This document shows, one piece after another, positions 14,545 to 37,149 of a DNA stretch of 64,000 bases. Under the pieces are notes generated by a model. It did not search any database. It was not told where the DNA came from and saw nothing but the letters and a program-made list of their open reading frames with translations. Both the position numbers and the translations under genes were made by a program. This stretch comes from Marsupella aquatica (taxonomy: Eukaryota; Plantae; Marchantiophyta). The DNA lies in contig OZ316893.1 in the NCBI GenBank assembly GCA_973895155.1, positions 10,049,660 to 10,113,659 of the forward strand, in the 5' to 3' direction. Within the stretch, counting starts at the first letter, position 1, and every line of letters begins with the position of its first letter.

Positions 14545-15225
14545 TCTCCTAACACTATGCCTGCTTCCGTTGGACAGGAGCGCTGCATGTCGGCGATGTA
14601 TTTTATTGTTGCGCCTCTCCCAGAGAGCTAGTTTCTCCCAACAGGTATAGATCTCGGTTTTATTCTGAAGGTTATGTGATCGTTGGAAGCCAGGTACAGT
14701 AGTTCCCTATCTATTTTTAACGTTCTTAGCAATCTGATTGGAACAAGGATAAGACGAATTGACCATACAGTGTTATTCAAACTTAGAAAGTTTGACAAAG
14801 CTTGCAATAGATTAGAATTTAATTCTCAATGTCGATGTCAGCCTGACATAAACTAGAATCTAGATCCATGCGTGAGATTATCTAACAAATGCCAAATTTT
14901 AAAACAATTCTGTAATCAGAAGGATAGCTACATAGCATAAAATTAAAATAGTAGTACATTTGTCTTGTGTGTAGATGGACACATCTTCTTTATTCTTCTG
15001 ATGTCATTTGTACTTCCATTGGACAGGAGCGCTGCATGTCAAATATGTAATTTAGTGCTGAGATCCTCCCAGGGATGCTATTCAGAGTTAAACTACTACT
15101 TCACCAACAACGTACTTCACCAACAACAGAAGGTAGATCTGGTTTTCATTACCAAGGTTATGTGATTGTTAGGAAGGTACTTCCCTGTCTATTTTAATAT
15201 TCTTACCACTTTGATTGGAAGAGGA
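14545..15225. repeat. Diverged direct duplication (period about 450 bp)
   Basis: TTGGACAGGAGCGCTGCATGTC near 14570 and 15019, followed by matching AGATCT.GGTTTT...AAGGTTATGTGAT and TTCCCT.TCTATTTT...TGATTGGAA blocks. Confidence 0.6.
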
Positions 15226-16066
15226 ATATTGCTCTCCTAGTTTTACGTCAGACAACACAAATTATGAAACTATAATGTACTCTACATATTGATTCATCAC
15301 TTTGCTTCCGACATGTGTTCTAACCAAGAGCAATGGCATTGATAAATTGTCTTGTAGACGTACATGAATATAATTTGTAAAGTTTTTTATGTGCATCTCA
15401 TCGTTTTCTGCTGCATGCAATTAAATACTGTGGTGGGTTTGCCAAAGTTTCAGTTCATTGTTTTAGCTTGTTGAAAATTATATTCACTGTTTATCTTCTT
15501 TAGTGGTGGCCTTGAGATACTAAAGTTTGTTGCCTGGACATGTAGGTCCAAGACAACTTTGACTTCAACACAATAGAGTGAGCAACAGGCGTAGCCGTTG
15601 ACAGTAAAAGCACAGGTCAGATTTGGGTATGCACTAAACTATTATTGGGCAACTGCATATAATTAGCCTCTACGTGCCAGAAGTCAGCCCTGTCAATAAT
15701 GCTAAAGAGTCCGTAGATCGAGTCACTCAAGGAGAGGTATCTTTGTTGGGACTGTGTATGGATCGAGTATCAATTGCAAGCATTCTTAGCACAAGGCTTG
15801 GTTTCTGTGCAAAGACAACTCAGACTAGTATATGGACGTACGTAGAGTTTAAGAAATTAATCTAAAAATTTGCTGCTAATTCATAACTAATCAATCGATC
15901 ATGGCAAGAAGCTGAATATTTAGTCTGATATATCGAGGGCTTAGTTTGAGGTAAATTAAAAATGACTAGATCAAATATTTTGGGCCAGATTCTGGGCCTT
16001 CTAAGATCTAGGAATTGATCTCAGTCAGTAAGGGTCGATAATGTATATATTGGCATATATGTGATT

Positions 16067-16099
16067 GAGTAGAGTAGAGTAGAGTAGAGTAGAGTAGAG
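16067..16099. repeat. (AGAGT)n microsatellite
   Basis: About 6 pentamer copies, read directly. Confidence 0.85.
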
Positions 16100-18757
16100 A
16101 GGTCGGGGGGACAACTGCCTGTGTCACAACATGAACTCATTTGTCCAACTTGCACGTCTTGGTCTAATTTAACATTCACACTCTCACAGTCTGTAGTCTA
16201 CCCGGCTGTCTACTCAGTTCAGTGTACAAGAATCAAGTGCCTTAGTTTCATTACGATGCTACATGTCAATAATATGCTTGTCAGAGTGTATGCTTGGCTG
16301 TGCAAACAGACCCAGTCAAACAATTAATGCAGCAAACTGTTGTTGCTTACTGTTGGCAGCCATGTGGAAGATAGTAGCTTAGAGCAACACTCAACAATAG
16401 AGTTTCCAAGCACGCGGTAGGAAGACTAAATTTTGGTTGTATGTTTTCATTTGGTTCTACAAATCTCACATGCTTTTGATCAGATTGTCTTTTTTTCCCT
16501 TCAGAAGTGGTTGTTCTTTAAATTAGTGTTCCTTTGTCACCTCCGCCCTTGCTATTTGGGTGGATTGACTCATTTGTTGATCATGCCTCTCAGTATTGAG
16601 TCGTGTTCTTGTAACTCGTTGTGATTGGTAAGAGTTTTAATGCTCAACTTCTGGTTTTGTTCCTTTGTGTGGTGCAGTATGCTGCGTAAAGGCGTGGAAG
16701 GCCAGGACTATTCTCACATGCTGTGTGAAGGCCAAGACTATTCTCAGTGGTAAGTGCTGCTACATGATTATACTGTTGGACATCCTTAAGTCTCTATCGT
16801 TGTTTTGGAGCCTTTGTTAATTGGAAACTTCTTGTTATGGCATATCTGTTTGAATATATACCCTTTGATATTGGCTATGTGAGCACATGATGAAGTGTGA
16901 TCTTGGATGTGTTTGGCAGTCTAGGAAGGTGGATCGAGCTACCCCTTCTCATCTCAATAACTGGCCTAAACGTGGCATATATCCCTTTTTCTAATCCCCA
17001 TCAGCGCGGAGTTGTTGAGGCTTGAGCTGGTCTGAGCAGGGTTGCTGAGCTAACTTGAAGTGCACTTGATCATAGGTAACCTGCCCTCAATCTCTGTAGT
17101 CCAGAGTGTGCTGAAGATTGCCATAGCAAGATTTGTCCTATTGTGCTTGACTATTCCTAAAGGTCATTTTATGTTCATTAACAATAACCAAAGTCTAAAC
17201 TTGGAGGTCACAACTAAAAGTTTATGGAGGATTGTAATATCCCCTTCTTCCCACAATCCTAAATCAATCCATGAATCCTTCAAGTAAGCTGTTACGGACT
17301 GTACACCTTATCAAAGAAATCATCCCTGAGGCCAGCAGCTAAGTCGTTACGGCCAGTGCATTTCCTGAATCCGTTCCATGTTGTGGAGTCCCAATAAAAT
17401 CACTCCACTCTAAGTCAGCTATCATTCCAGCAATCCCACTTTATGAAATGGATTGCATTTTATCCCTACCAGCTCAAACCATGATGTGCAATTCAACTGT
17501 CTCTCACATCGTGTCCCCTTGGCCTCTCTGTGGTCAACTGAGCTAGCCTTCCTTTGAGGCAATACATTTATCAATTGCTGCATGAACCATGGCTTGTGCT
17601 GCGAAGCAAGTGACCTCGATTATCCTCCCAGTCGGCCCTGTCTCTGAAATAGATTTTCATGATTTCATATAGCACAAACCATGGTTTGCACATCTTTATG
17701 TTAAGTCTAATTCCACCACTCTGACCTCAACTCACCTTCCTTTGAGGCATTACATTTTCCAAACCTGGTGCCTTGTACCTATCGTGGCACAAACCATGGT
17801 TCGTGCTGTGAAGGGGTAATATGTGACTCCCACTATCACAACTCACATCTGGACTTGGCTGTCCTTCCAGCCAACAATTTTCTAGCAAATGGATTTACAT
17901 TTGTACTTGCAGCACAAACAAGGATTTGCACATCATGCATGTCCACCCAGTCCAATTTCTAATCTTAATCACTACAACACTATGCACCTCTTTTGCGAAC
18001 CACCACCCTTCGCATCATACAAAGGAAACAAAATCCAAAATACCCAATTTGCAAACTTACTCGCATCGCAACGTCTTCGCTACTTCCCATCTCAAATTCT
18101 TCGCAAACGGCCCTTTGCAACTACTTCGCAACTTGCGATTCTAAATACGTCGCAACATCTCCACAACGTTGCGACGGCACTGTTCTTGCAAATATTGAGA
18201 AACGACAAATTTCATTATTTTGCGAGAACAAATGAATCGCTCGTGTTGCGATAACATTTACATCGCAATTTCCGATGTTAAATTTCTCTGTAACTTGCGA
18301 TGCAAACAAACTCGTAAGATTGCGAGAAGCGGATAACCGCTTTGTTGCGAAGGCATTTAACTCGCAAACGTGTGGAGAGGAAGTCTTCGCTAGGGTTTTG
18401 ATTTAGACAACATCGCAAGTGTTGCGATGCGTTTCTCCTCGGAATGGTTGCGATACGTTCACCGTGGGTCTTTGAGATGGGGGTTGGTTCTCAAAAGCTT
18501 CGCAAAATGTATATTTCATGGGTTTTTGTGTATTTGGGTTAGGGTGAGGGTGAGGGAGACCATTCATGGGTTTTGAAGGAGGGAGGAAAGTGATGTTGAC
18601 CCAGTCTGCCGCAATTAAAATGGCATTACTGAAAAAGTACAAAAGTTACAAAATGGAAGGGTAAAAACCCTTAGGTAAAGTGCCACGGCCATGCATGCTG
18701 ATCGCTATACATGTGAACTCGATGTAAGTGCTCTAGCTACAACTTGTCTACATCAAG

Positions 18758-20854
18758 CTAGAAAGGAGTGTTCCTGCCCCTCCTTGCCTTCTTCCCCTTG
18801 GCCTTCTCCTTGCCCTTGTGTGCTCTTGGGGGGGGTGCAACATGGACTTCCTCCTCCTCTTGGTCACCCTCGGGGTCACCCTCATCCTCATCCTCATCCT
18901 CATCCCCACCTCCACCGCCCTGGCTTGCCGCGCTACCACCCCCAGCACCACTGGAACGTGCTGATGCAAATGACTGGTCTCCAGTGCTAGTTGGCCTGGC
19001 TTGAGTAGCAGGAGCTGTGCTCCCCTCCCCTGTCCCCTCCACATCCTCATCACTACTATCGGTGCCACCCTCGGTATGGGAGTCACCATCCTCCCCTCCC
19101 TGCTTCCATTAGCAAACCAGGGTGTCTGTTAGTCTCATATTCTTTACAAGTGTGAACAAAAGAGATATTCATTCAAAATTGCAATGAATGTAATAACCTA
19201 AAAATTCTCACCAATAATTCATCAACTTGCTGAAAGAGACGCTCCTTCCCATGTTTCTGGCCCACCTCCATCTCAGCCGCCGTAATCTTCCTCTTGTACC
19301 TCTTGTACTAAGCCAAAACAAAACCAGCACAATTGGGTTAACACCAACCCATAACCCGATTCACATGGCTTCTAAAAATTAGGGGGTTTGTTGGGGCTGG
19401 TGGGGTGGTGCATCAAGGTTTTGGGGTTATGGAGGGTGGCATATATGGGGAAGACCCTCAAAGAACACTTAAACGATCGGAAAATTTAAAAATTCAAATT
19501 TTTGAAATTTTGCGAAGGCGCCAACTTCGCAATCATAAGGACAATTACGTTTGCGAAGCTGGTTGCGATGCGAACGTCTTTGCAACGCCTTCGCAAACGT
19601 AAGCAAAAAAAGGGCATAATAAGGTTTGCGAAGGATTTGTGAAGCTACCCGCATCGCAAATGTATCGCAAACTCTGTCATGGCAAAAACCCGAGAGGGAA
19701 GCAACTGTACGTGACCTAATCTGACACAACAAGTCTAATTGTAACTACTTGGTGGAAATGCAAGAAAGAGTTGGCTCATTGCAGGTGTGTTGGAATAGGA
19801 ATTGGAGTAGCAAGAAGTCAAGGGAGGAGAGGGAGGTGCACTCACGAATGCTGCTTTGAGGCCGGGGAGGCCACCTTGACCCAGCCTGTGGGTGATGTTG
19901 GGCTTGTCTCGGACTCGCTCAGCTGCCTTCAGGAACTTGTTGGGTGGATCGCCTACTTCTGCTACAACCTGCTGGAGCTGGGCTACCTTCTGCTCCATCA
20001 CCTTCAGGTCCCGGTCAGACTTCCCGGCCTCCTTTGCCCTTCGAGCCTTTGCCAGCTTCTCTGTGAAATCATTGAGGAGCCTGGCTGCTTTCAACTTCAC
20101 CTCTGTCTGGTAGAAGGCCTGCCAGATATCTTCTGAGAATTGCAGCGGCCTCTGCAAATTCCTATACTCCTCCAAATCTCTAAGGTGAGACCTGATCTTC
20201 ATTCTATCATGGTATCTAGCTTGTGACATGGAGTTTGAAATTTTGTCAACAAGCCACTGTGAATCCATCTCTCCTCCATTTCAAAATGCATCTTTCACCT
20301 GATTGATGACTCGCTTCTGCTCTGCCTTTGAGCGAGTGCCCCACTCGACTCCTCTTGCAAAATTTGTGGATACAATGTGCCTGATTGTGCTCTTGGCCCC
20401 ATTGTAAGCAAGCTCGGTGGGAATCCCCTCATCCTCTAAAGTAATCAGAGGCAGCTTCCTCCTTGCTGCCTCCTTCTTTCTTTGCTCCTCCCTCTGTTTC
20501 CTGATCAGGTCTCTCTCATCTTTCCTCCTCTTCTTTTCCAATGCTTGAGGCGAGAGCACTCCAGCCTGAGCTCTCTCGTCCCTCTTTCGCTTCCTCTCAG
20601 CAGCCACCTGCTCTGCTGCCTTCCTTGCATCCTCCTCCACTGCTGCTTGCCCTGCAGTGAGACCTGCTTGCAAGGCTTGGCCCAGAAGGGCACTCAATGA
20701 TGCCAGCCCTGCTGGACTGGTGAAATCAATTTGACTCAACTATGCAACCAAAAAATGCTCATCCACAATCGCCTTCAATCGATCCCCCCCCTCGGTTGCC
20801 TCCGCTGCTGCCAGAAGCTCCTCCATCACCACCAGTCCCCTCTTCGCTCGCCAT
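18758..20854 (-). pseudogene. CACTA ORF2 / TnpA-like gene (element 2), multi-exon, disrupted
   Basis: Probable ATG at 20854, apparent frameshift in a G run near 20790, in-frame stops at 20740-20742 and 20281-20283. THRLGQGG motif, then GTGAGT donor at 19845. Probable last exon (about 19100-18758) has an acidic DEDEDE tract and a basic KGKKARRGR NLS-like end. Downstream exon boundaries are uncertain. Confidence 0.62.
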
Positions 20855-21559
20855 CGCTCCGCCCTTGCCCTCGTTGCTCTCCTCAGGCCTGAATGAACTG
20901 AATCCGCCTTGTCCGCGCTCGGCAATCCATAAGGATTCAAAATATTGGGCTTTGCGATTCGTTTCGCATCGCAATTTGCGATGCATCGGCCTTCGCAAAA
21001 AGCTTCGCAAATTCTATCTTTGCGAAGCTTCAAGATTTGCAAAAGCCTTCGCTATTTGGTTTTGCCATAACCCCCGTCTCGCATGCGTATTTGATGTGTT
21101 GTTAGGGATACTAAGGGGGCTTATGAACATTACATGGGGTAGATGTAGAGGATTATGTTGCATTTTAGTGGGATGTGATGAGATAAGGATTGGGGGGGTT
21201 AGAAAATTGAAGGAGTTATATTGCAGGGTAAGAGGAGGGGGTTTGGCCTGGTTAGGGGAGGGTTTCTTTTGTGAAGGTTGGGCTTAGATTGGCTTAGATA
21301 CGAGGGGTTTTATGTTTTGGGTTTGCAGGGGGGTTTTATTTATGAAGGTTGGGGTTATATGTATTGGAGGGTAAGAGCTAGGAGGGGTTTTATGTTTTGG
21401 GTTTTGGGGTTTAGGCCAACTTAGGAGGGTTTGAAAGAGAGGTTTCAGTTTTATAGTATCTTGGGTTACTTTTATGGTATCTTAGGAGGGTAACCAAGAG
21501 GGGTGGCATATAATTATGGTAGAGAGAAGCATAGGATGGTTGAAGGGAATTGACCATTT

Positions 21560-22630
21560 AGGTTTTTGCTAACTTCATTGGCTTACGCTTTTAGAGTTCC
21601 CAAGGGTCTATGGTGGGTTTTTATTGCATGACACTCACCTTTCACTTGAAGCGGGATGAGGTTTTGGTTTTTATGCTAACAATTGAGGGAAATCCCATGT
21701 AATCATGATCCAATGCAGGACCATCACTGCTTCCTCAACTTTTGTCTAATGCATATGCATTGTGGGAACCCGGACATCTAAAAGGTATATTTAAACATGT
21801 ATGTTAGCAGGGTTTGATAAAGAGATTGTTCATAAACCTTGCCCTTCTTTGTTGTGCAAGAATATCTATATGCACATGTTTGGGGGTCTACAACTTGAGA
21901 GAAGCTAATGGCTATCCAAACTTACTTTTTTGTTTCCAGTATTTTCCTCGTGCTTCTAGATTCAGCTCATGTTCAATGAGCCACACGACCTACAAGCACT
22001 ATTGAGTCCGGATCTCATTCAGGTAATTATTGTCCAACTTCATTCTGGGCTTAGGCCTTTAGAGTTTTCCCAGGGGTCTAGGGTGGGTTTTTATTGCATG
22101 ACACTCACCTTTCACTCGAGGGGGGATAAGGGTTTAGGGTTTAGGGTTTTATGCTAACAATTGAGGGGAAAACCCATGTAATCATGATACAACGCAGGGC
22201 CAACACTACTACCTCAACTTTTGTCTAATGCATATGCATTGTGGGAACCCGGGCATCTAAAAGGTATAACATCATGTATACAGTCAATGTTGTTAGTACA
22301 GATTTTTATGCTTGCCCTTCTTTGTTGTGCCATGATATATGTGGGTAAATGTCTAAGATTCCACAACTTGACGGCTGCTAATTACCATCCAAACTTACAT
22401 TTTGTTTCCAGTATTTTCCTCCTACTTCTAGATTTGGCAAATGTTCCAAAAGCCACGTGACCTATAGGCACTGTTGAGCCCGGGTCTCATTCAGGTAATA
22501 ATCTAACCTCACTTAGGACATAGGGTATTACAATTTTCCCAAAGGTTATAATGTGGTTTCTTCTTGCATGACACTCACCTTAATTTGGGTTTCATGCTAA
22601 CAAATATAAAAGGGTAATAAAACCCCATGT
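21560..22630 (+). repeat. 472-bp tandem duplication (2 copies plus a partial third) containing an 83-nt putative 5'UTR exon
   Basis: TTTCCAG|TATTTTCCTC...CTCATTCAG|GTAAT at 21940-22022 and 22412-22494. TTGCATGACACTCACCT occurs three times. Confidence 0.8.
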
Positions 22631-22737
22631 ATAAACCAACCTAATTGTTTTTTGAGTTCATTTTTTTTAAAATCGCTTTATATATGGCCTAATTTTTCCT
22701 AATCATGCCCTACATGCAATGTAATGTGGCAGTGGAT

Positions 22738-22962
22738 ATGTCCTCTTCCTCTGAACTATCCAGTAGTGAGTACTCCTCCGATGACGATATACCCCCTCCT
22801 CCTCAGCCCGAGGTTACTGGTCCTCGTGGTCCACCCCGAAGACTTTGTGACTGCACCAGATGTGTGGGCCAAATTTCTCAAAAATCTTATGTGTGTGCTC
22901 AACATATTGAGAGATATGGACATCATAGAGGTCTTACTCCCGGGGCTTCTTCATCCCATATG
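22738..22962 (+). CDS. Shared first coding exon: transposase-associated Zn-binding domain (element 2)
   Basis: ATG at 22738 after a TGGCAG acceptor. CDCTRC...QHIERYG. Phase-0 donor ATG|GTAAGT at 22962/22963. Confidence 0.8.
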
Positions 22963-23073
22963 GTAAGTTTGTTTCAATTGATTGCCGTTCTTTACTGTTA
23001 TTTTTAGAGGTGAATCAATGTTTACACATATGGTTTACACATTTGGTTGTTTGTGGGTGTTTGCATGGAATAG

Positions 23074-23904
23074 GGATCCAGTATGCGTAGATTGGTGACA
23101 CCACCACCCTATGTCCCATCACAAGGAGTTTTAGATGCTATAGGCAATGCACTTTCACAAGCCTTGGGTTTGGGAATTAGTACCAGTCATGGGACAGAAG
23201 GGGAACACCGTCATGTGCCCACTGAGACACGAAGACCCCGGTCCAGGCCCCAATCCAACAGGAGGCCACGAGCACCCAATGACCCATCCAGAACACTAGT
23301 TCAGGGTAGGTGGGGTGTTTGTTCATTCACTGGCAAGTGTGCCTCTATCATCAAGGATTGGGAACCTATCACTCTTGGCTTGCCTTATTTTACAGATTTT
23401 GATGAGGAGATTGTGGTTTGGGGTAGACGTTGGATTGTGAAAACTTCCACACTTGGAGAGAGACATGGATATGGAGTATTTGCTTGTGAGGATATCATCA
23501 TGGATGAGGAGGGTGGGTCAAGTGTTCGTGGTAGAGAGGGTCCTACTTTGTTCCCATACGGTGGACCCATCTACAAGAGAAGACATTGGAACATGATCCT
23601 TGCACAACATCCTGAGTGGAAAACATATGCTCTAGAGATGGATACTTTTGATGGTAGCACTAGAAGGTATAGTGAGCAGCGGGTGATAGATGGTGATCCC
23701 ATACGTAATGAGAATATTGCTGGTTTCATAAATAGTACTGTGGGGACTCGGCCCAAGCGTAGGGCCAATTGTGAGTGGGTTTTTACTGATGGTCCAATGC
23801 CGGCACCATATGGCACGACATATCATAAGGACCATTGCTTAGATCTTGCTACTAGGACCATTAGAGCAGGAGATGAGTTATTCACACACTATGAGTGGGA
23901 TTAG
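23074..23904 (+). CDS. SET/PR-like lysine methyltransferase exon inside the CACTA transposase intron (element 2)
   Basis: Acceptor AATAG|GGA at 23073/23074, phase 0. GYGVFACEDI, FPYGG, IDGD..NIAGFINS, ANCE, IRAGDELFTHY. No stops. Confidence 0.85.
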   Translation, partial: GSSMRRLVTPPPYVPSQGVLDAIGNALSQALGLGISTSHGTEGEHRHVPTETRRPRSRPQSNRRPRAPNDPSRTLVQGRWGVCSFTGKCASIIKDWEPITLGLPYFTDFDEEIVVWGRRWIVKTSTLGERHGYGVFACEDIIMDEEGGSSVRGREGPTLFPYGGPIYKRRHWNMILAQHPEWKTYALEMDTFDGSTRRYSEQRVIDGDPIRNENIAGFINSTVGTRPKRRANCEWVFTDGPMPAPYGTTYHKDHCLDLATRTIRAGDELFTHYEWD

Positions 23905-24115
23905 GAAATCATGTCCTTTATCCTCTTGCACCTATTTTGGACTTCCCATTTACTATTATATATATGGCCTTTGGGCTCATTTTGGAGTAATAAGGTTTTA
24001 GCCCATGCATTTACTTTAATTCTTAATGTCTTGAATGAATGGTGTTAAGTCTATTTTAATTTGTTGTACTTGGTCAAATATACATGAGGAGGTTTTTTGG
24101 TTGTAATGTGCATAG

Positions 24116-27100
24116 AATGCGCAACCATCTCAACAAATGTTACCACGAAGGTTGAGAGCAACATATCGGGAGATGGGTATGCTAGAAGAGGGAGAACCAT
24201 CAGAGGGTGATTCCTCATCAAGTAATGATGTAGGTGGTGCTGATGAGGAAGCCGCACCTCGGACTGATGACCAGGTCATGCATGATCAAGATAGAGCCAT
24301 GGATGACTTCATGGTTGATTGGTTTGGTGCCGATGTTGAGGATGATGTGCCTCACATTGGTCATGAGGTTGGCCCTTCAAATGACCCACGGCCACAACAT
24401 ACTCCAGAGGGACAACAACAATGGAAAGAGGCAGAGGAACATGCTCGAACACCTATTTTTGAGGGTGCTCGGTTGAGCCGTCTTTCTGCCATATTGGGGC
24501 TCTTGAACATTCAAGCCAAACACAAGACAAGCAATTCTATGTTATCAGACATATTTGAATATTGTCATGACTTGATGTTACCCTCGGAGAATGTGTTGCC
24601 AGGGACCTAGAAGGATGCAAAGAAGGTTCTCTCATCCATTGGTATGGATTACCATATTATTCATGCCTGTGTGAATGATTGCATGTTATTTCACGGGGAT
24701 ACAGCCCATATCACAGAATGCACAGTGTGTCATGAGCCACGGTATGAGCCAAACATGCTAACCCAGAAGGTACCAAGGAAAGCAGTTCGTTGGTTCCCCA
24801 TAATTCCTCGCTTGTTGCACATGTATAGATGTTCTGACTTGGCCGAGTTGATGGTATGGCACAAGAAACATCGTTCGGAGCCCGGTGTCATGCGATTACC
24901 AGTTGACTCTCCTGCTCATAAACATGTGGAATCAACATGGCCAGATTTTGAGCGTGACCCTCGGCATGTGCGACTGGGGTTGGCATCAGATGGAGTTAGC
25001 CCTCATTCACTTGGAGGGAAGGGGAGACCTACATCGGTCTGGCCTGTGGTTCTCATGAATTACAACCTTCCACCATGGTTGTCCATGAAAAAGGGTTTTT
25101 TGTTGCTATCTTTGATTATCCCAGGGCCAAAGAAGGTGAAGAACATGGACACCTATTTGACATTACTGGTTCAGGAACTCCAGAAATTATGGGAAGGAGT
25201 ATGGGCATATGATGGTCGAAAGACTACAGGGGGTACCCCACGGGTTTTCAAACTCAAAGGGGTTTGTATGTAGACCATGCATGACTACCCAGGTAAGAAC
25301 TTTGTTGTTTAAATGCATCATATTCTAATGCATGGTATCCCCTCATTTCCATGTGCTAATCCTAACATAATGTGTGTTTATATGACCAGGATTTGGCTTT
25401 GTGAGTGGGTTGCAAACCCAAGGCTACAAGGCTTGCTCCACTTGTGGCCCAAGCCTTGGTGATGTAGCCAAGTATTCATCACATCTTCGCAAGATTGTTT
25501 ATCTTGGGCATACAAAGTTTCTTCCAATGGGACATTAGATGAGGCGTGACCCACTACTATTTTCCTCTATTGATATGCCCTTTGGTGACGAGCGTGATGT
25601 ACCTGAGCCAACAACTTTTACACACTGGAAAGACATGGCTGCAAGAGTGGCAGACCCAGAGGATCCCATGCAATTTGACGGTAGTGGCTTGACAAGGTGG
25701 AGTATATTAACCACTTTGCCCTATTGGGGTGAGTTGAAGATCCGCCATCTATTAGACCCCATGCACATTGAGGGAAATGTGGGAAAGGCTTTGATAAAGG
25801 CTTTCTATGGAGAGAAAGACACTAACTTCAGGGAGGCTTGTGAGGATCTTGAGATGCATCCAGACGTGTGGGTCATAAGTGATCCTATCACGGGGATCGA
25901 GCATCGACCTTCAGCTCCATGGGTGCTTCCTATTGGCCAGAGAAGGGAGTTTCAGAATCGCATAGGAGACATGCGGTTTCCTACTGGTTATGGTGCCAAT
26001 CTCCGAAAGGCCTTTGGGATGGAGGACAATCATAAGTGGCCAAGGTATCTCAAGACACATGACTACCATAGGTTATTGCAGCACATATTGCCTGTGGCCA
26101 TAATAGGTTTGGCAAGTGAAGAAGTGCAAGATGCCCTTTGGTCATTGGGAAAACTATTGAGATGGGTATGCTCTAAGGAGATATATACTGATGAGATCCC
26201 TAGGATGGAGGTTTTGGCAGCAGAGGTGGTATGCAAGTTGGAGAAGGCCCTTCCTCCTTCCTTTTTTGATTGTCAAGTGCATTTACTTGTTCATCTTGTT
26301 CATGAGGTGGCCATTGCAGGTCCTGTGCATTGTCGGTGGATGTATTGGCTAGAACGATACATGGCAGTGTTAAAAGGTTATGTACGTAACCGTGCACGGG
26401 TTGAGGGAAGCATGGCTACAGGATACTTAGCAGCTGAGAGTATGTTCTATTGTAGTAACATATTGGCCACAATTGATTGTACCTCTCCCCGTACTTGGGT
26501 AGAGGAGAGGGAAGATGAAGAGGATCGTTTAACAGGTGCTAGGAAAACTCGCATGTTGACACCAGTGGAGGTGAAACAACTGACCACATTCATGTTGAGT
26601 AACAGCACTATCATGGAAGAATGGAAGGATTTCTATGAGGATGCCAAAAGTAACAGCACAAGACCAAGGATTTTTCCAAAGTACCTTGACTATATGAAGG
26701 AGAAGTTAGTTGAGGTGGATGACATGGTGGTCAGGGGAGAGAGTGTATTACATTTTCCGGCTATCACAGATGATGTTCGTACCATTGTTCATGGTCCCTT
26801 GAGAGTGGTTACAACAAGGACAGCAATGTGGACACAAGGAAGACATTTTAGGTGATCTCCATCTACCTTAGTAACCTTTGATTTGAATCACTTGGTTTAA
26901 TTTAATTCATTTGTAATACAAGCACGTATATTGAAGAGGCAGATTCTTGGTGTGTTCAATTAATTGGAATATGTTTGTGTCTATTTTTGTGTAACATATC
27001 CTTATGGTTTGATGGATTTTAGGATTTCTTCCCTTGATGAGAAGAGGGGTCATACCTTTGATTGTGGAGTTCAAGGACAATTCTCTCAAGATTCCCGCAG

Positions 27101-27509
27101 CAGTCGCCATGACACAAATATTATTCGAGATGTTGTGCCACATTATGGAAAGGTAGAAGAGATTCTAGTGATATCTTATGATGCACAATCAAAGTTTGAA
27201 GAGTATGTCTTCAAGTGCAAGTGGTTCAAAGTGAACCTTGCAGGTAACAATCCTACTGTGGTTCAAGATGAGTGTGGATTTACACGACTGAAGACGTCTG
27301 CCACTAGTTTCCAGCCATCTCATTGGCAAACATCAGAGCCGTTCACTTTTCCAAGTCATGTGGAACAATGTTTCTATATTCCATACCCCCCAAACCCAGA
27401 GGAATGGTCACTTGTCATCACATATGTGCCACGGTCTCGTTCAATCGTTGGGGAAAAGCCTGATATTCTGGTTGTGTCCCAACCTGAAGATGATGAGGAC
27501 CAAGTTTGA
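24116..27509 (+). pseudogene. CACTA Tnp2/TnpD transposase (exons 24116-25292, 25390-26851, 27023-27509)
   Basis: Phase-0 acceptor ATAG|AAT GCG. Same motifs as element 1. In-frame TAG stops at 24608, 25271 and 25536. Two GT-AG introns keep the frame. Confidence 0.92.
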
Positions 27510-29567
27510 GGGGTCTGTGTTTGTGGATATATAGCTACACGGATATATAGTTAGATTTGATGATATGAAGATTTCTCTTCTCGGTAGAATGGAGAAATAT
27601 GTGCTTCTCAATTATCAATAAACTTATGTTTTGTAAGTATATCATTTTCAAATGTTGTTTTCTATATCTCCCATCCCTACCCCACACTCACCACACCTTT
27701 TGGTAGACTTTATGCAAAGAAAACTCATGTTGCTTGTAGTCCTCTATCCTCCATGCTTTCCTAATCCCCCCCTAGCTGTTCTCCTTATTACTTGTACCCA
27801 CCTCCCTCCTCCTTTCTTTCATTGTCTGTCCCTCTTATTAAACCCTCCTTCCTCCTTCCTCTCCTTGTCCCAACCCCTGGCTTTCTATTTCAACCCTATA
27901 CTTTCCTTACTTTCCACCCCTGTCCCCCACTCTTACCTATACAAGCTAGCTTCTCTCCTCCCTCCTAAACCTATACCCTTAAACCTCCCTCATTTCCTTG
28001 TCCCTCTCTAAACCAATACCCTCCCTCCTTTCCTTGTCCCTCTCTAAACCCTAAACTCCCTCCTTTTTATTTTCACTCCCTAAATCCAAACCCTCCCTAA
28101 AACTATATCTACATACCCTTCCTCCTCCCTCATTTCCTTGTGCCCCCTAAACCTGTATCCTCCCTCTTGGATCCCTTCGTTCCTTGTCCCTCCTAGCCCC
28201 ATTCCCTTCCTCCTCCTTTTCATTGTCCCTCCCTAAAAATTACATGTATCCACCCTCCTTTACCCTCCCTCCCCAATCCCATTCCTTTTCCACCTCTTTG
28301 AAGCGCTCATAATATTTTGCGAAACATCTTGCGAAACCCCTACACCCGCAAACTCATCGCTACATTTGCGATACTTAACTGCTCCCTAATTGCCATCATC
28401 CCCTCATCGCAAACTTCCGAAGATACCACCATCTCAAAGTTGCGAAACCAAAACATTCACAAAATGAGACCCTAGACAGGCACAGGATTTGCGAGCCTAT
28501 TACTATCGCAAGTTAGCCATATATTCCACAAACATCGCTCATTTGCGAGACAATAAGACTCGCAAAATATTTTGAGATGCTTAAATATTCGCAACCATTT
28601 AGTTTTCCGGCGCATCTCAATGAATTTGCGAAGCGGTAAAGATCGCTAACGTGTTCAATGGTAATTGCTTCGGAAATGTTTTGCGATACCTGAAGTGTCA
28701 TAAAATGTTGCGATGGTCTAAGTTTCGCAATTATGTGTTGCGATGTGTGTAGATTTGCTAAGTGCGATGCGTATCGTATCGCAAGTTTAGCGATGAGATT
28801 AATCTTGCAAAGCTTTCTTCCTCTTGTAAAACGCCTTCGCAAAATTGGCAAATATGTAGTAGTGAATGAAGCTCAATTTTGCTTTCAAGGGCATGAACCA
28901 TGGTTTGCTCTGAAGTTTATCTTCCTAGTCAATTTTTCTAGACCTTGTTGCACAAAGGGACCTATTGATATCCGAGCCTTATTACTTCATGTTCATTTTG
29001 ATTGTTAGTGTTGCCATTCATTTAACGTGAAAGTCATATCATTTGCAGTGCAAACCATGGTTTGCACTACTGAGAATAAGTATCACAAGCCCTCATTGCA
29101 CGAATCTTGGTTTGCAGTATCCCCATTGATTTGTCCTGAAGTTCATTCCCTGTAACCATTTGCAAAGCAAACCATGGTTTGCAGTACAAAGAATAAATAC
29201 CAGTCACAGCTAGCTATCTTGCACGAACCTTGGTTTGCACTGTCCCAGTAGTCTTTGATTCAATTCATTTAGATTCAAAGCTAAATATTATTCCATGAAC
29301 CTTTGTTTGCACTATCCCTAGTCATCTTTGATTTCATCTAGATTTAGAGCTTGCAGCATGAACCATGGTTTGATGATCTACATTTTGCCAGAATCCAAAC
29401 TACTCTATGCTGTCCCTGGGAGAAAATTAAGTCAAACATTTCAAAATATCTGGTTTCTTTGAACATTCAACATGTTCTTTAAAGAATATCCTTGACACAT
29501 CTTGCCGACAGTATTCTTATGATCAAATTTGTTTTTGTTGTGAAGCAGAGCGAGAACGCACATAGTC

Positions 29568-32500
29568 ATGGCATCCGAAGGAGAAACTAGCAAGAAGAAG
29601 CGGAAGTCTTTGGAAAAAACTGATGGAAGCCCAAAAAAAAGGAAAGCCAAAGTTAGAAAGGGTGTAACAGGAGTGAATTCCATCACTAATTTTTGTGGGA
29701 GGAAGATGACATTGAAATCCACCATCACCGATACTGTTGTCCGAGTTGAACAGAAAGATATGAAGCACTGGGGAGTGGTGCTTGATAAGAATGTTCTTCG
29801 GATGTGCATCGCTTCTGAAGAGGGGACTTTGGTATTGTCAGACTCTCGAATTCTCAGTTGTGTTTATGAGAAAAATGTCAACCTGAAAGACTGTCAAGAG
29901 GCTTTGGTCCTTCTGGTCGAGGAGGATACCGTCGATGAATCACAAAACAATAGGATTTGCTATTGTTTCTCCAGAGAGGTATTTGGGATGTTTGACCAAA
30001 CATACATTGAGGCAAATTGCAGATTATCTCCGGAGGCATTCTCAACCATTTTGGATCCCACATTCCCAAAGGTTTCTACACTCATAAATGGCCCAAGCAT
30101 CGAGAGGTACATGTTATCCATCTTGGCATGGGCAAAATGCACCTTCCCGGAAACATTTCGTGTTGGAAAGAAGGAGGAACTTGAGAAGCAATCCAAGTTT
30201 GAAACAGGAGAACTTCCAAAAGTGATCACTGGAGAAAACATTGGAGATCTTTGCAAGAGTTTCAATGGTGTTTATAAAAAAGCAAACATCTTTGATAGTA
30301 GAGTTTTCAATGTTGAAAATTTGAAATGCCACATTGCACCCAATGTTGTAAAATGTAGAGGACATGACCCTGATTACTCAAGGGACCTTGCCAACTCGAT
30401 GAAATTTCAGTCGTTGGTAAATTTTGAGAAGCGGGTTTGTTTCCTCATCCCAGTGCTTTGGGATGAAAGCAGGAGCACTGAAGTTGGCTATTGTGGGACT
30501 CCATTGTCACACCCACCGATCCTTGATCAAATTGACAATTATCATTTTTGGATAATTGGAGGCCAGCACACAGTAATAGCTTACCGATTACTTTTGAATG
30601 ATGAATCAGTGGATGCTGCTATTCATCAAAAATGCCTTACAATTGATGCCGTGATGTTTTGGGCACCATATGATTTGGCTGGGAACCTGGTAATGATGGG
30701 ATTATCAAAGACATTGAATCATGTCCATCACACAACGATGGATGAATCCCAATTTTTCTTGATTGCAAGACAGGTCAGAGATATTTGGAAAAGTTATGGA
30801 TGTCCTCCTTCAGAGACAAACAGCACCAAAGATTCAAAATGGAAGGTAAGAGTCATATATTTCATAAGTTTATTTTTATTCTTGTTTAACTTCTGCTAGT
30901 GCATCTGAATGCAATAGAATGTGAAAAGTATAACAGTGTGAACCATGGTTCGTATCCACCTAATGATTTTAGTTGTGTGTGAACAACACTTCTCAAAAGC
31001 AACAATGATCGTCATCCCTTGGGCTAAAGAGGAGAATGGAAAATTTAATTTGGGTGAACTTGGACCTTTCATCTTAAATATGACAGATTCCACCTTCAAC
31101 TTGTGGATGAAAGTTTACGAGATGTCAAGAGAAGGAAAATTGGTTGCTTTCAATGGGTTCTTACAGAGAGATGTTATTAAGAAAGATTCTGCTCGAGGAG
31201 CTTGGGAGGTGGCACGAAGAACATTTCGGGATTTTCTTGGTGTTGAAGATGCAGTGTTGATGAAGATTGCAAGGTATCTTCTTACCAATAAGAAGATCTC
31301 ACTAATGAAGCAACGAAGTAGCGGAATTGCAAAGAAGATAGATGCAATTCCTATCGAAGAAGATTTCATTGCTCTTGATGAGTATTGCGTTCAAAAGAAG
31401 CAGGATAAGGAGTTTGAGATACTGCTTTTGAAATATCTTGCAAAAGATAATATGCCTAAGGGGAAACTACGAGCGTTGCCCATGGAGCAGAGAATCGAGA
31501 AGGTGAATGCAATGCGAGCTTTTTTTAAGCTTACTCGAGATAAAGTTGAAAAACTTCAAACTACGCTTGGACCTGCAGTAATCCCAAAATCATTAACGAA
31601 GAACACTAGAAATGACGAGTTGCAAAATCTTCTGCCTGGAGTTTTTAAGAGTTTGATATGGTCAATCAGGGCTTCAGTGGATGGAAAAGGTAATCCGGTG
31701 GTTGTGAAACTTGACTCAAAACTTAGGTTTTGTTCAAATGAGGGATTTGGAACTCCTGCATTTTTTCGTCCAATCATCTTGGAATTGAAAGAAATGGCAA
31801 CATTCATATTCTTGGATTCTACCATGATACCTGGAATAAGTCCCATGACACGGAAGACATATGAAGCATTCTTTGATGCAGCTTCTATGATTGGGTCCAA
31901 ACCATCTCATGTCGTGGTAGTGATATCATCTGCGATCGACTCTTTCTTTGTGATGAGTGCCATTTCAGCACACCCACATTATGTTGCATTCACAACACAA
32001 TACTGGACACAATCTCGACCGTCATCTTCTACATCGACAATTTATGATGTCAATTGTCTTTTTGTAACTTATGCATTCTTCAAAGTGTCATTCACTGAAG
32101 AATGTGAGGCAGATGACATTTCTGGAAATTTTTTGTTAAGCTTTAAGAAAGCAGGATGTTTGAAGAATTATGAAGAGACAACAGAAGATGTTGCAGAGCA
32201 GACTCAGCTTGGGGAGAAAAGCAAGAGTTTCTATGATAACTTGACTTCTCAACTTGTCTCATTTGACAAGTTTTCTGTCTGTTTTGGAGATGGCCGACAT
32301 CTGATCCACTCCCTTTTGGTATGAGTTTTTAAACCCCAAACCTTACAGTTGAAAGTTCATTTAATTATTCAACTATATTGAAATCCCAAGTATTAAAACT
32401 CAGTCTCATGGTTTTGCAGAACTTGGGAGCTCGGGTACGTTCATATTGTGACGAGTCTAATCACAAAGGACTTACGCAGTTCTTTTCTTCCACAAACAAG

Positions 32501-35500
32501 TTTAATCATGATCAGCCTGAAGAAGCATCATGTGAACTTCGAAGTATTTTAGAGAAAAATATTGCCAGATTGATGAAGTATAATTTGGCCAAGAAGAATA
32601 TGAGAGAGGACATTATTGAGCTTTGCAAAGATACCTTACACCTTGGTGAAAGTAGTATTGCTCGTGTGATCAAGGAATATGGATTGGGCAACATTCTTGA
32701 ATCAGATGACAAAGTCTACGAAATGCCAACCAATGTTCCTACTGATCCACTTGGAGGTTAATATGACTACCATTTGTTATAAACTACCATATTCAATAGC
32801 TAATGATGAATTAAGTAGCCAAACTTGTCATATGCCAGATATGAATCATGAATTATAAATCGATGTTCTCAAGAGAATGATGTACATGATTTGATATAGA
32901 ATGATTGATTGATGAAAATATTAGAATGAACCATGGTTGGAACAAGTTGGATGTGTGAAGTTAGATAAATTTATCAAGACAATATAGAACCTATTATTTG
33001 GTATAGTCCAAACATTTCAAATGGATAATAATTCCAACTAGAGTTGAAGCAAATACTAATACGAACTGAACAACCCAATCATAGTTTTAACTTGTCAAAT
33101 GAATCGCTTAAATTCTATAAATAGATTAACTTACTCTGGAATTTTGTGAAAAATTAGATTAGTACTTAACATAATATAGAAAACACTTGTCTAATACATC
33201 ATGTAGTCATTGAAATTAGGCAAAGCAAACTAATAGCGATATTTAATAAATAAAAATAATTAGAAGTTTATTGGTTCACCATATTTATCTATTGTTTGTT
33301 GTTTTGGTTGTAGGAGATAAAACCAATTCTATTGAGGACGAGAACAAGGATGAGGACGAAGAGGATAACATTGATTCCCCGAATGCTTGGCAGCCACTAA
33401 AGTTGGATCACGTGGAATCACCAAATGATTCAATGGAAATTCTTGACTCGTTCAGGGCTTTCCAAACCGAACCAGAGCTCAATGTCGAGGAACAAGGAGT
33501 TTCAATGACCAAAGGAAGATGCCCTACCTCAAATCTAAATGCAAAGAACGTTAAAAATATCCAATCAAATTGTAGCCGTGCTGGGGTGCAAGAATCAAAT
33601 CAAAGAAACAAAAATGAAGTGGCATTTGATGAAACCAAAAGTAAAAATGAGCGAAGAATGATTGTCCGCAAATTTGTGTGGGAAAATTATATTCCTGATC
33701 AGGAAACCAGTTGCCCAGATCACATTTCTACAATAGATTGGGATGAGTTCTTTCGAAGCGAAGCTCAATTTCATGGGTGGAAAGCAAGAGCATATTGGCA
33801 TGAAGCTTTGACTCATCGCTCCGGTTTGGAAACCCCTGAACAAATCACTAATTTACAAGATAATGTCTATTATGCAACAGAAGTATGTGAAATGGTTGGA
33901 GATCCTCCTATTGATGTTTTTGCCATTCAAAGTGAACCTAAAAGCACTATTAACAAATGGACTTGGATGAAGGAGTATCAACTAATCTCCAACCCTATCA
34001 CTAACTCTATAGATACACCCGTGTCTAATCTTAATGATGCTACACTAGATACATGTGCAGTTTATCAAAGTGATTATGAACAAGCAATCATCCAAGATTT
34101 GGGTGTGAAGAGAGATGATTCTTTCATTCCAAACGAGGAAACAATAGGAGACAATGCTTTGGTCGTGAATCCAATGGTGGAGCAGATGGATCCTTTACTG
34201 GTTGAAACTAACATTTTGGGCACGTCTCCCATATCGACAGAGCAAGTAAATGTTGATGGTGATCCAGTGGAGAAGAAAATGGATCCTTCAATGGTTGAAA
34301 CTAACATTTTGGACGTGCCTCCCACATCGACAGAGTCAAGAAATGCTAACAACAACCTAGCAAGGGAGCAGGTGGATCCTCTAGTGGTTGAGACTAACAT
34401 TTTGGATGTGCGTCCCACATCAACAGAGCCAATAAATGCTAACAATAACCTAGCAAGGGAGCAGATGGATCCTCTAGTGGTTGAGGCTAATATTTTGGAT
34501 GAGCCTTTAACATTGACAAAGCCAAGAAATGTTGACAGCAACCTAGCAAGGGAGCAAATGGATCCTCTAGAGACAAGAAATGTTGAAATCAATGCACAAG
34601 TGGATCCTGTTATGATTTTGGCCGAAAAACCAAAGGTGTCTCACACATCGATGGACCCTAAAACAAATGAGAGTGATTTGTTGGTAGATAGTGAAGAACA
34701 TCCTTGGATCCAACAAGCCACTAACCTTGAAGATCAAGACATACCGGAGGTGGGAAAAATTGCGCCTTGGGAAGAGGAAGCATCTGCTGCAGCCTACGCT
34801 GATGGATTGAATGAATTACCACCTCCTTTTTTGGGGATCCCATTAGTTTCAACTTCTCATGGAGATTGTTCACAAACGACTCCGGCAACAAGAATGGAGC
34901 TTCCTAAGACTGGTTCCAAGGTCATTCCAGGTCGTGCCACTCGACGGGATTCAAAGAGACCCTCGTTGATAGAAAAAGTTACTATGCTGCCAAAGGTGAA
35001 GAAGACACCTCAGCAGATTTTGCGCAACAAGAAGTAATGATTTTATTTTGACTATACTTAAAATGTATAATGTTTTTCATAGTGCTATAAATTGTTTGAT
35101 TGTTTAGGTGCAATCTGAGCCCAAACCAGCAAATTGGTCATTATGGATGTGAATAGTGTATAGTATCAAGGAAACTTACCCATTATGGTTGCAAAAGTCA
35201 TTGCAACAAGATTGGAGGGAACACTTCCAAATATGGATCAATACTCAGTATATTCGTGATCATGGAGATAGAAATCATTCAAGGAGATTCCATGTGTTTA
35301 ATAATCAGGGTACATTTTGGACTACTTATCACACTTATTTGTAGAATGAACCATGGTGCATAGTTAATTTATGACATATTTTTGGGTACTATTCTAAATC
35401 TCATCTGTGTGTGTTGTGTACAGGTGAGAGTTGAAAAATTATTCAGGAAATTACTTGTCATAAGTATCAACAAGTTCCTCATTTACACAACTGGGGTCTC

Positions 35501-35966
35501 TCGTCATTTGAAGAAGACATCATCTTTCCGAGTTTATAACAAAATGATCTTTCCGAGACCATATGTACAAGAATTTCTTGAATTTTGCACTTCAACTTTT
35601 GATGTGGTTCTTTGGGCACTCACTGACACATGCGAACTGGCTGATCAAATGGATCCAATACTCACAGATAAAGCTTTGAGTTTTTCTGGTCTTAAGTATC
35701 TTACATCAACTTTGATGGACATGAAACAGATCAATGATATTTATCCACAATATCAAAGACAAAATGTTATATTTTTAGAGTGTTATCCATCATTTGATAG
35801 TGTAAATCCAATGTATTCAAGGCTGTATCCCAAGCCGTATTATGGTAATTGTAAAGACAATTTTCTTAGAGGCACACTTATTCCATATTTACGTAATCTA
35901 GAAGATTCTGGTCAGACAGCGCATAAGTTTATTAAATATCACTATCCTACTTGGTCTGAAGTATGA
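29568..35966 (+). CDS. Large multi-exon gene of unknown function: NLS, ParB-like motif, degenerate amino-MTase-like region, repeat linker, inactive FCP1/NIF-like domain
   Basis: Exons about 29568-30845, about 30972-32318, 32420-32756, 33314-35033, 35424-35966. Junctions 32318/32420 and 32756/33314 keep the frame; the first and last junctions are unresolved. Motifs KKKRK..KKRK, FWIIGGQHT, RKLLVISINKFLI...RPYVQEFLEFC..FDVVLW. Confidence 0.55.
34172..34570 (+). repeat. Coding 93-bp (31-aa) tandem repeat, about 4.3 copies
   Basis: GGATCCT recurs at 34188, 34281, 34374, 34467, 34560. Unit REQ(M/V)DPLVVETNILD...NANNNLA. Confidence 0.9.
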
Positions 35967-37149
35967 GACAGTATCAATAGAAATGTAGTAAAAGAAACCA
36001 CAGCTTGTGTGGTGTAGTGTTTAGAATATATTCAAATGTATTCTTTTTGGATAATAAAAGTTACATTATTTACGTGAAAAATTGAAATGATTGCTTACTG
36101 CATTATATATTCATGAATGATTACTTGTAATGTTCATTTTACTTCATAATGTCGAATGCCAAAATGTCTACTTGTAGAGCAAAAATTCTATTCTTGAACT
36201 CAGTTTTGGCAGCACCCGATAATACTTGTAAATTCAGTCTTTATATTCATAGTGTCTGATGCGAAAATAGATACACATAGTATAAAACTTGTCATTTTGT
36301 AGAGATCTACTAGTGTTAAATGCAAAAAATTTGGCTTAAGTTTCTTTTAGGCCCTTGGGACTTATTGAGTATTATAGCCAATATTAATTCTCAAATTCAG
36401 TAGATACCAATTTAAATGAAAACTTTTTGTTTACTCACTATCAGTGTATTGCATTGAATATGCATTTCACCAACAAATTAGAATACGAACCATGGTTTAT
36501 TGTATGTTTTGACACTTAATTTGGTTTACTTCTTTTTTTGTTTGGGGAGGGGGGGGGGGGGAATAAAACCCGCAAAAACCCATGGGAAGGGGGGCCCAAC
36601 AGGGCAACAAAGACAGAGGCAGCAAAATGCAAACCTATGAGACTGAGAGAGAGCCCCAATGAGCAAGGACAAAAAAAGATGCGGTCCATGCAAGCAAGGA
36701 AAGACACAATCCAAAAGAAAAGTGTCCAAGCGTGTGACCCACCTAAGATGTTCCTGACTAACTAATTCTTTTACTCTAAGTAATCTAGTATGTTTTCTAC
36801 CAAGACCCGAGGCTTTGCAGAGGCCATGCAAAGAGTCTAACATTTATGATTCAAGGAGTAGATTCAAGTTAAACACTCAATTTGGTTTACTTTGTTTAAA
36901 TTGTTCCTATCACATGTGACTGAACTTGGATCCATCAGGTTTTTGCTGATGTCCTGGAGCATACCATACTTTCAAACTAGAGGAAAAGAGTTAATACAAT
37001 GGGGGAAAATGGAAGTCTTGGACACTTCCCCCTTATATATGGCCCGTGGTGGTTTAAATTTATTTATTTATTTATTTAAATGAATTAAATAAATCAGTAA
37101 TATCTTTGTAAAACTTCATTTAAGCATTTCTGGAATTGAAAATTCCACT

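What the first reader, a model, noticed from the sequence alone, without database searches (positions are those of the whole stretch)
17585..36497. Dispersed AACCATGGTT palindrome system marks a probable third, larger element into which CACTA 2 inserted
Seen: exact AACCATGGTT at about 17677, 17792, 28896, 29053, 29170, 29361, 30941, 32929, 36488, plus near matches (17585, 29103, 29226, 35349), often extended as GCA(C)AAACCATGGTTTGCA. A given 10-mer is expected well under once in 64 kb. Removing CACTA 2 joins the 17.6-17.8 kb and 28.9-29.4 kb copies into one cluster upstream of the 29568 gene. The rest lie in or at the edge of that gene's introns and just downstream, the same promoter-plus-intron pattern as the CACTA motifs. 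Inference: binding sites for a dimeric element-encoded protein (parS-like, given the ParB-like motif).
Basis: partly seen in the sequence, partly recalled or inferred. Interest (0 to 1): 0.72.

Follow-up and report, generated by a model that had tools for sequence, protein, structure and literature searches.

The report
Plant mobile element with ParB-like gene
A repeated DNA unit of at least 12 kb, likely a mobile element of a liverwort-like plant, carries a gene with the predicted fold of bacterial ParB DNA-binding proteins and sixteen copies of one palindrome in its non-coding DNA that likely are that protein's own landing sites, a pairing proposed for algal transposons but never tested.

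Summary
The palindrome is real: 9 exact AACCATGGTT (0.09 expected), 16 sites with near matches. All are non-coding and lie in a 12-kb unit (about 14280-37150 without CACTA 2). A public contig joins 17966 to 28865, so copies without CACTA 2 exist and the two clusters form one 12-site array. Contig depths put the unit at roughly six near-identical copies while the right flank is low-copy, so the 'third element' is supported. Its ends, target duplication and transposase were not found. The unit's one gene (six exons, about 1,800 codons, two apparent lesions in this copy) has a predicted ParB/sulfiredoxin-fold domain and a degenerate NIF phosphatase domain; the named relatives are from the liverwort Calypogeia. 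One distant relative reads through a motif-compatible peptide in the same intron. Best reading: a likely non-autonomous element whose ParB-like protein recognises its own DNA, as proposed for red- and brown-algal transposon accessory genes and shown for VANDAL/VANC. Against: binding is untested, the GxxR arginine is missing, and the bare 10-mer also clusters in unrelated repeats without this gene. New variant of a described but untested kind.

The parts
14280..37150 (.). Multi-copy host unit, about 12 kb after removing CACTA 2. Left end not determined (14427 or further left, possibly beyond CACTA 1); right end between 37042 and about 37205
   Evidence: Contigs at 99% or more identity over 14427-17966 and 28865-37042 have about 6 times the depth of flanking contigs in X1 and X2
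17477..17926 (.). Left half of the palindrome array: 17477, 17585, 17677, 17792, 17917
17970..28864 (.). CACTA 2, inserted into the array, 3-base duplication AAT (17967-17969 and 28865-28867)
   Evidence: Ends; transposase domains; joined form 17966/28865 in X2 record 10
28896..29370 (.). Right half of the array: 28896, 29053, 29103, 29170, 29226, 29298, 29361; partly made of short duplicated blocks (60-90 nt, about 79% alike)
29568..30845 (+). Exon 1: basic N-terminus (possible nuclear signal, inferred), unknown domain, ParB/sulfiredoxin-fold domain with GGQHT at residues 331-335
   Evidence: Model pLDDT 78; Foldseek and VIA-align matches; same exon end in homologues
30941..30950 (.). Palindrome in intron 1 (30846-30986); the acceptor of this intron reads CAA in this copy
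   Evidence: exon 2 start placed by spliced Calypogeia homologues
30987..32318 (+). Exon 2: helical region after the ParB domain (DNA-reading part, inferred) and an unassigned domain that resembles a beta-class N6A/N4C methylase by eye only
   Evidence: Atlas structure rows over residues 225-540 of P0037; methylase profile test negative; low-confidence model
32420..32756 (+). Exon 3
   Evidence: GT/AG borders and open frame
32929..32938 (.). Palindrome in intron 3 (32757-33313)
33314..35033 (+). Exon 4: acidic region with 93-nt (31-residue) tandem repeats at 34179-34550
35108..35309 (+). Exon 5, with an in-frame TAG at 35154-35156 in this copy
35349..35358 (.). One-mismatch palindrome in intron 5 (35310-35423)
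35424..35966 (+). Exon 6: NIF/FCP1-type HAD phosphatase domain; both aspartates of the first motif replaced (ISINK), so likely inactive
   Evidence: PF03031 E 7.6e-10, over the cut-off; motif; the DxDxT motif is recalled
36488..36497 (.). Last palindrome, behind the stop codon
36512..36892 (.). Small insertion between two 20-nt direct repeats (36512-36531, 36873-36892), carried by the multi-copy contigs
37068..37147 (+). Two AT-rich hairpins near the right edge, just before a 5'-truncated Copia fragment (from about 37160)
   Evidence: Copia RT; not shown to be the terminus

Best explanation
The palindromes lie in the non-coding DNA of a multi-copy unit that is likely a non-autonomous mobile element of a liverwort-like plant, and they likely are the binding sites of the unit's own protein, which has a predicted ParB-type fold. 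Shown: the sites, their confinement to the unit's non-coding DNA, the later CACTA 2 insertion, the higher contig depth and the gene structure. Predicted: the ParB/Srx fold. Inferred: the protein would bind the 20-bp twofold-symmetric site as a dimer through the helices that follow the ParB domain, load mainly on the 12-site leader array and on single sites in introns 1, 3 and 5 and the 3' flank, and so mark the whole element as self. It would then keep the element transcribed or shielded from silencing, as VANC proteins do for VANDAL, or regulate its own expression. Intact copies elsewhere would supply the protein and a partner element the transposase.
For: All 9 exact sites fall in the 11,983-nt unit, P about 3e-7; AACCATG is 1.84 per kb inside and 0.06 per kb outside; lone half-sites are not enriched (3.09 against 2.96 per kb); 16 of 16 called sites are non-coding, and P = 0.007 for the 4 sites in and behind the gene. 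Depth of listed contigs, unit against right flank: X1 113-130 against 15.8-22.3; X2 167-228 against 32.5-35.4; X4 488-575 against 21-79. The window differs from the deep contigs by a few letters per kb but by none from X1's 7 listed flank contigs, as expected for one copy against a family consensus. Diverged paralogues at 82-85% identity are also present. Fold: Foldseek's top 10 rows are ParB, Noc or sulfiredoxin (best E 7e-3); VIA Z 8.7 to PadC (rmsd 3.1, 100 aligned) and KorB (rmsd 4.5, 120 aligned), and the 8 rows at Z 5 or more are nearly all named members of that fold family. The Atlas model of the spliced homologue P0037 aligns to ParB_N + HTH_ParB clusters, TM 0.32-0.33 by query. Homologue P0010 (55% identical) reads YEPWF into intron 1, compatible with the motif; P0008 reads YESWF, one change away. 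Chance of [EKQ]PW[FL] in 244 intron-like codons is 0.00045, of any motif-compatible peptide 0.015. The same pairing is proposed for algal transposons and motif binding in introns is shown for VANC21.
Against: No binding data and no RNA evidence. No terminal repeats, target duplication or transposase were found for the unit, and its left end is unknown. Contig depth is only a rough copy measure, both piece tables were cut, and X1 may be the source sample. Only 1 of 15 homologue read-through tails shows the exact-compatible peptide (the tails are short, 268 residues in all, and no DNA could be fetched). Paired AACCATGGTT occurs in at least 119 metagenome stretches, including repeat families of 28, 14 and 9 loci; 0 of 119 match the gene by tblastn at E 0.01 and none matches the window's DNA. 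The Box II GxxR arginine is T in all 8 sequences of A3. Foldseek gave no match at E 0.001 or better, and Z 8.7 is only just above the tool's common background of 7-8. This copy of the gene appears broken.
Confidence: 0.55

Rival explanations
1. The unit is mobile, but the palindromes are bound by another protein: a transposase or TnpA-like helper encoded on the unseen left part (beyond CACTA 1) or on an autonomous partner. The ParB-like gene is then cargo.
For: The left end is undetermined, and CACTA 1 starts before the window, so more genes may exist. Motif arrays bound by element proteins are general in DNA transposons (recalled); CACTA 2 itself has TTGCGA clusters at both ends and in an intron.
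Against: The sites are not concentrated at the known right end (one site there) but upstream of and inside the ParB-like gene; the motif-compatible peptide in P0010 lies in the same intron.
Confidence: 0.17
2. The motif is a by-product or a host signal: a palindrome spread by local duplication, or a host transcription-factor site that many repeats pick up, with no tie to the ParB-like protein.
For: Short duplicated blocks in the array. The same 10-mer clusters in at least three unrelated repeat families without the gene.
Against: Flanks of the 12 array sites beyond the 22-mer are mostly unrelated (only 6 of 66 pairs reach 18 of 40 identical; best 22), yet the 20-mer is kept. Isolated copies sit in three separate introns and the 3' flank, and none lies in 52 kb outside the unit.
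Confidence: 0.15
3. The unit is not mobile itself: a domesticated ParB-like gene with autoregulatory sites, multiplied by segmental or tandem duplication or carried passively inside a larger element.
For: No termini, target duplication or transposase found. One X2 contig joins 29398 back to 15852 (table 5c), which may be a tandem junction.
Against: Depth falls within about 160 nt at the right edge, inside a truncated Copia. Several paralogue classes at different depths and frameshifted or partial homologues fit a transposon family.
Confidence: 0.13

Closest known systems
PAG3 of red-algal Plavaka (EnSpm/CACTA) transposons (Petroll et al., bioRxiv 10.1101/2025.02.11.637652; section 8 read whole)
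   Same: Transposon accessory gene with an N-terminal ParB-like domain and adjacent arrays of inverted repeats; self-binding proposed, not tested.
   Different: PAG3 carries a 2OG oxygenase domain and sits beside a transposase. Here: a land plant, a NIF pseudo-phosphatase at the C-terminus, sites also single in introns, and no transposase seen. Sequence kinship to PAG3 was not tested.
ParB-like + N4C/N6A methyltransferase accessory gene of Ectocarpus Sola1-1 (PMC12477816; passages read)
   Same: ParB-like accessory gene on a giant DNA transposon; the paper also reports giant non-autonomous families with only non-transposase genes.
   Different: The methyltransferase domain is recognisable there; here it is a resemblance by eye that failed a profile test. 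No palindrome array is mentioned in the passages seen.
VANC/VANDAL anti-silencing system of Arabidopsis (PMC5735166; passages read)
   Same: An element-encoded protein binds short motifs in introns and upstream regions of its own element; targets grow by tandem duplication; the protein has tandem peptide repeats.
   Different: The VANC21 motif (YAGTATTAY) is non-palindromic and arrayed in one orientation; VANC on a Mutator-like element is not described as ParB-like in the passages seen.
Bacterial and plasmid ParB-parS, KorB-OB, Noc-NBS; F plasmid SopB-sopC
   Same: ParB/Srx fold followed by helices; clustered palindromic sites next to the gene. F sopC shares the core ACCAYGGT (9 matches).
   Different: No ParA partner, GxxR arginine absent, spliced eukaryotic gene; profile comparison with SopB found nothing; sopC flanks differ, so the shared core may be coincidence.
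DUF3723 auxiliary genes of fungal Starships
   Same: Top feature hits of the homologue P0037 in the Atlas (0.91 and 0.90); function unknown in print.
   Different: Only 141 of 256 features shared, no Pfam DUF3723 hit, no tyrosine recombinase seen in the unit. A lead only.

Membership tests
ParB/sulfiredoxin fold superfamily | ParB/Srx nucleotide-binding fold | tested here: met
   Model pLDDT 78; top Foldseek and VIA rows are ParB, KorB, PadC, Srx and SerK; scores are modest
Canonical ParB-parS CTPase clamp | Box II GxxR motif | tested here: not met
   GGQHT, T invariant in 8 of 8 sequences; motif defined in bioRxiv 10.1101/2025.10.10.680097
Canonical ParB-parS CTPase clamp | Central helix-turn-helix that reads the site | tested here: inconclusive
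   Helices predicted at low confidence; Atlas alignment to ParB_N + HTH_ParB clusters under the tool's bar
Canonical ParB-parS CTPase clamp | ParA partner gene beside it | tested here: inconclusive
   No other long ORF in 14280-17960, but the left end of the unit is unknown
Canonical ParB-parS CTPase clamp | Specific binding to the palindrome and NTP-dependent spreading | not testable with these tools
   Needs EMSA, DAP-seq and nucleotide assays
ParB-like transposon accessory genes (PAG3 / Sola1-1 type) | ParB-like gene on a multi-copy element | tested here: met
   About sixfold contig depth with a sharp right edge
ParB-like transposon accessory genes (PAG3 / Sola1-1 type) | Inverted-repeat array adjacent to the gene | tested here: met
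   12-site array ending about 200 nt before the ATG
ParB-like transposon accessory genes (PAG3 / Sola1-1 type) | Fused DNA-modifying domain (2OG oxygenase or N4C/N6A methylase) | tested here: inconclusive
   hhalign against 62 methylases gave probability 0.1 with a two-sequence query; no Pfam or PHROG hit; Atlas uninformative
ParB-like transposon accessory genes (PAG3 / Sola1-1 type) | Host element with terminal repeats, target duplication and transposase | tested here: inconclusive
   None found between the visible ends; the left end is not in view
Starship (DUF3435 captain, DUF3723) | DUF3435 tyrosine recombinase at the 5' end; DUF3723 domain | tested here: inconclusive
   No Pfam hit to either in the ORFs and homologues scanned; Atlas feature lead only; left end unseen
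Helitron | 3' hairpin plus CTRR followed by target T; 5' TC; RepHel gene | tested here: inconclusive
   An AT-rich hairpin at 37131-37147 is followed by CTAA then A; no RepHel seen; end features recalled
NIF/FCP1 HAD phosphatases (active) | DxDxT/V catalytic motif | tested here: not met
   PF03031 matched but the motif position reads ISINK; motif recalled

The most novel reading that the evidence does not exclude
Liverworts carry an unclassified family of giant mobile elements that run their own ParB/parS-like self-recognition system: a ParB-fold reader and a matching palindrome placed in leader and introns, which load on the element and spread over it to hold off silencing or to pair its ends. 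The same reader family may include the Starship DUF3723 genes, which would make ParB-type self-marking a shared device of giant eukaryotic elements from fungi, algae and land plants.
Probability: 0.25. Interest if true: 0.85.

Novelty: new variant of a known kind. Interest (0 to 1): 0.55.

Why it matters
ParB-like accessory genes beside inverted repeats have been noted on red- and brown-algal transposons, and self-binding was proposed but not tested. My searches found no report for land plants (the library lacks most subscription papers, and Iyer et al. 2011, which the Ectocarpus paper cites, was not seen). This case offers a defined 20-bp site, a recently amplified family and relatives in an annotated liverwort genome, so the idea can be tested directly. 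If true, it would be a second, unrelated kind of sequence-specific self-recognition in plant transposons after VANDAL/VANC, built on a prokaryotic partition fold.

Tried and rejected
No genome is held for the window, so no genome-wide motif map. Word-index homologue searches: none for exon 1 among longer proteins, one among similar lengths, none for exon 2. The search for related loci with alignment A3: 0 of 4 stretches confirmed in metagenome contigs and 0 of 5 in viral contigs, so no homologue DNA was obtained. Paired motif in viral contigs: 2 loci, a 22-nt tandem repeat and a phage repressor region, unrelated. Methylase reading of exon 2/3: not supported. Exon 2 model too poor to search (pLDDT 38). 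PDB sequence search with A1: 0 matches. SopB profile comparison: nothing. Homodimer prediction for P0037 residues 215-541: no verdict, neither for nor against. Rfam over 14000-40000: one weak match inside CACTA 2, below threshold. No RNA holder listed. Run X5 (organism C) holds only short, mostly diverged pieces and was not used as evidence. Literature: DUF3723 with ParB, 0 papers; AACCATGGTT, 55 papers, of which the 25 listed titles are unrelated; Iyer et al. 2016 (PMC4738411; section 8 and passages) showed no such plant protein. Starship papers seen as passages only. No supplements were read; Supplemental Table 6 of the Bostrychia preprint may list related elements.
Full report
Observation. 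A position matrix extends the set to 16 sites with the symmetric consensus G-Y-R-Y-R-AACCATGGTT-Y-R-Y-R-C. All nine exact sites lie in 14280-17969 plus 28868-37160 (11,983 nt; P about 3e-7). Lone half-sites are no more frequent there than elsewhere, so the whole palindrome is what is enriched.

CACTA 2. It runs from 17970 to 28864 with the duplication AAT. In run X2 a 4,135-nt contig covers 16109-17966 and continues directly at 28865-31103 (record 10). Because that contig is deep, it most likely shows the other copies of the unit, which lack CACTA 2. Without CACTA 2 the sites form one array of 12 over about 1 kb, spaced 50-157 nt apart.

Is there a third element? No genome was available, so I laid contigs of five public runs from three studies; X1 to X4 come from two studies and two organism labels. 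Listed contigs at 99% or more identity over the unit have depths of 113-130 in X1, 167-228 in X2 and 488-575 in X4. Listed contigs over the flank at 40.9-53 kb, around a probable glycosyltransferase gene (identified by eye), have 15.8-22.3, 32.5-35.4 and 21-79. That is about six copies in X1 and X2 and perhaps ten in X4. The tool warns that depth is no copy number, and both piece tables were cut, so this is an estimate. Two more facts agree. The window differs from the deep contigs (for example 12 letters in 1,858) but not from X1's seven listed flank contigs. Diverged paralogues of the gene at 82-85% identity occur at other depths (23.8 in X1; 26, 830 and 874 in X2). The deep cover ends between 37042 and about 37205, where a 5'-truncated Copia begins. 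On the left it reaches at least 14427. I found no inverted repeat between the two visible ends and no transposase. The element may extend beyond CACTA 1, whose left end is outside the window.

The gene. Six exons give 1,803 codons. Homologues end exon 1 at the same place, and spliced Calypogeia fissa proteins fix the start of exon 2. This copy has CAA at the intron 1 acceptor and a TAG in exon 5, so it appears broken; whether other copies share these changes could not be seen. HMMER found 28 relatives at E 0.001 or better among 1.84 billion proteins. Of the 20 looked up, the only 4 with an organism name are Calypogeia fissa, which points to a liverwort or close relative as host (inference). 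The second half of exon 1 folds with pLDDT 78 and matches the ParB/sulfiredoxin family, though with modest scores. The Box II arginine of GxxR (bioRxiv 10.1101/2025.10.10.680097, passages) is threonine in all 8 sequences aligned, so CTP-driven clamping is doubtful. The Atlas aligns the spliced homologue P0037 with ParB_N + HTH_ParB clusters below its naming bar and gives DUF3723 as top feature hit. The last exon is a NIF-type phosphatase domain lacking the catalytic aspartates. Exon 2/3 looks like a decayed adenine/cytosine methylase by eye, but a profile test did not support this.

Site and gene together. All 16 sites are non-coding: 12 upstream, likely in a leader intron (acceptor 19 nt before the ATG), one each in introns 1, 3 and 5, and one behind the stop. 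One weak matrix hit at 32728 lies in exon 3 and was not counted. Of 15 homologues whose predicted protein reads on into intron 1, P0010 gives YEPWF, which is how the motif translates in one frame, and P0008 gives YESWF; the other 13 do not. The chance is 0.00045 for the strict peptide and 0.015 for any motif-compatible one. The DNA could not be fetched. Against specificity: a metagenome scan for two exact motifs 90-120 nt apart stopped at its limit with 119 stretches. They include three repeat families with other flanking letters, and none of the 119 holds a relative of the gene or resembles the window; the best profile hit was E 0.013. The 10-mer alone is therefore not a marker of this family.

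Mechanism. Most likely (0.55) the element's ParB-like protein reads the 20-bp palindrome as a dimer, loads on the leader array and intron sites, and marks the element as self, protecting or regulating it. The sites, gene and insertion are shown; copy number is estimated; the fold is predicted; binding, dimerisation and effect are inferred. Rivals are a different element-encoded binder (0.17), a by-product or host motif (0.15) and a non-mobile duplicated gene (0.13).

What is known. The Bostrychia preprint (section 8 read whole) describes PAG3, a ParB-domain accessory gene of Plavaka transposons with adjacent inverted-repeat arrays, and proposes self-binding. The Ectocarpus paper (passages) reports a ParB-like plus methyltransferase gene on a giant Sola element, and giant non-autonomous families. 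Hosaka et al. (PMC5735166, passages) show VANC21 binding motifs in introns and upstream regions of VANDAL21. F plasmid sopC shares the core ACCAYGGT, possibly by chance. Six searches found no land-plant report. Earlier notes of this scan describe a like layout in protist transposons; I did not test them.

Verdict. A real feature and a new variant of a described but untested kind. It works like a transposon self-recognition system but is not a canonical ParB-parS system. Interest 0.55.

Noticed in passing
window 23074-23904: CACTA 2 carries an ORF with a weak SET-domain match (PF00856, E 4.5e-4, just under the cut-off); CACTA 1 seems to have a similar stretch near 2900-3560 (by eye). SET accessory genes are reported on algal Plavaka and HarbingerS elements.
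   Followed up: partly
window 1-14278: CACTA 1 ends at 14278 with an unusual terminus (GTACCAGTG, i.e. CACTG type), has TCGGA repeats, and is interrupted by a Copia with near-identical LTRs at about 5.9-6.3 kb and 12.0-12.4 kb.
   Followed up: no
L126-L244 (metagenome contigs): AACCATGGTT clusters in at least three unrelated repeat families (28, 14 and 9 loci), with flanks such as TTAACCATGGTTAA and nested AACCA/TGGTT arrays; no shared gene was found.
   Followed up: partly
window 35045-35381: A low-depth paralogue contig in X1, X2 and X4 has a piece like 35335-35367 (the intron 5 site) after 35045 and then returns to 35314, which may be an extra site; deep paralogue contigs align over intron 5 with indels next to the site.
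   Followed up: no
window 14532-14626 and 14981-15075; 16680-17090: Duplicated blocks near the left edge and two short GT/AG-bordered stretches that could be non-coding leader exons.
   Followed up: no
window 46336-46622: Two 92-nt direct repeats (95% alike) that look tRNA-derived, inside an intron of the probable glycosyltransferase gene; very deep in all runs.
   Followed up: no
window 43190-43234, 44032-46000, 50173-50207: Short high-copy repeats with many loose ends; the glycosyltransferase-like gene appears split by insertions at about 44.1-46.9 kb.
   Followed up: no
window 53000-64000: A LINE-like element (about 53-57 kb) interrupted by a Gypsy-like element on the minus strand, read by eye.
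   Followed up: no
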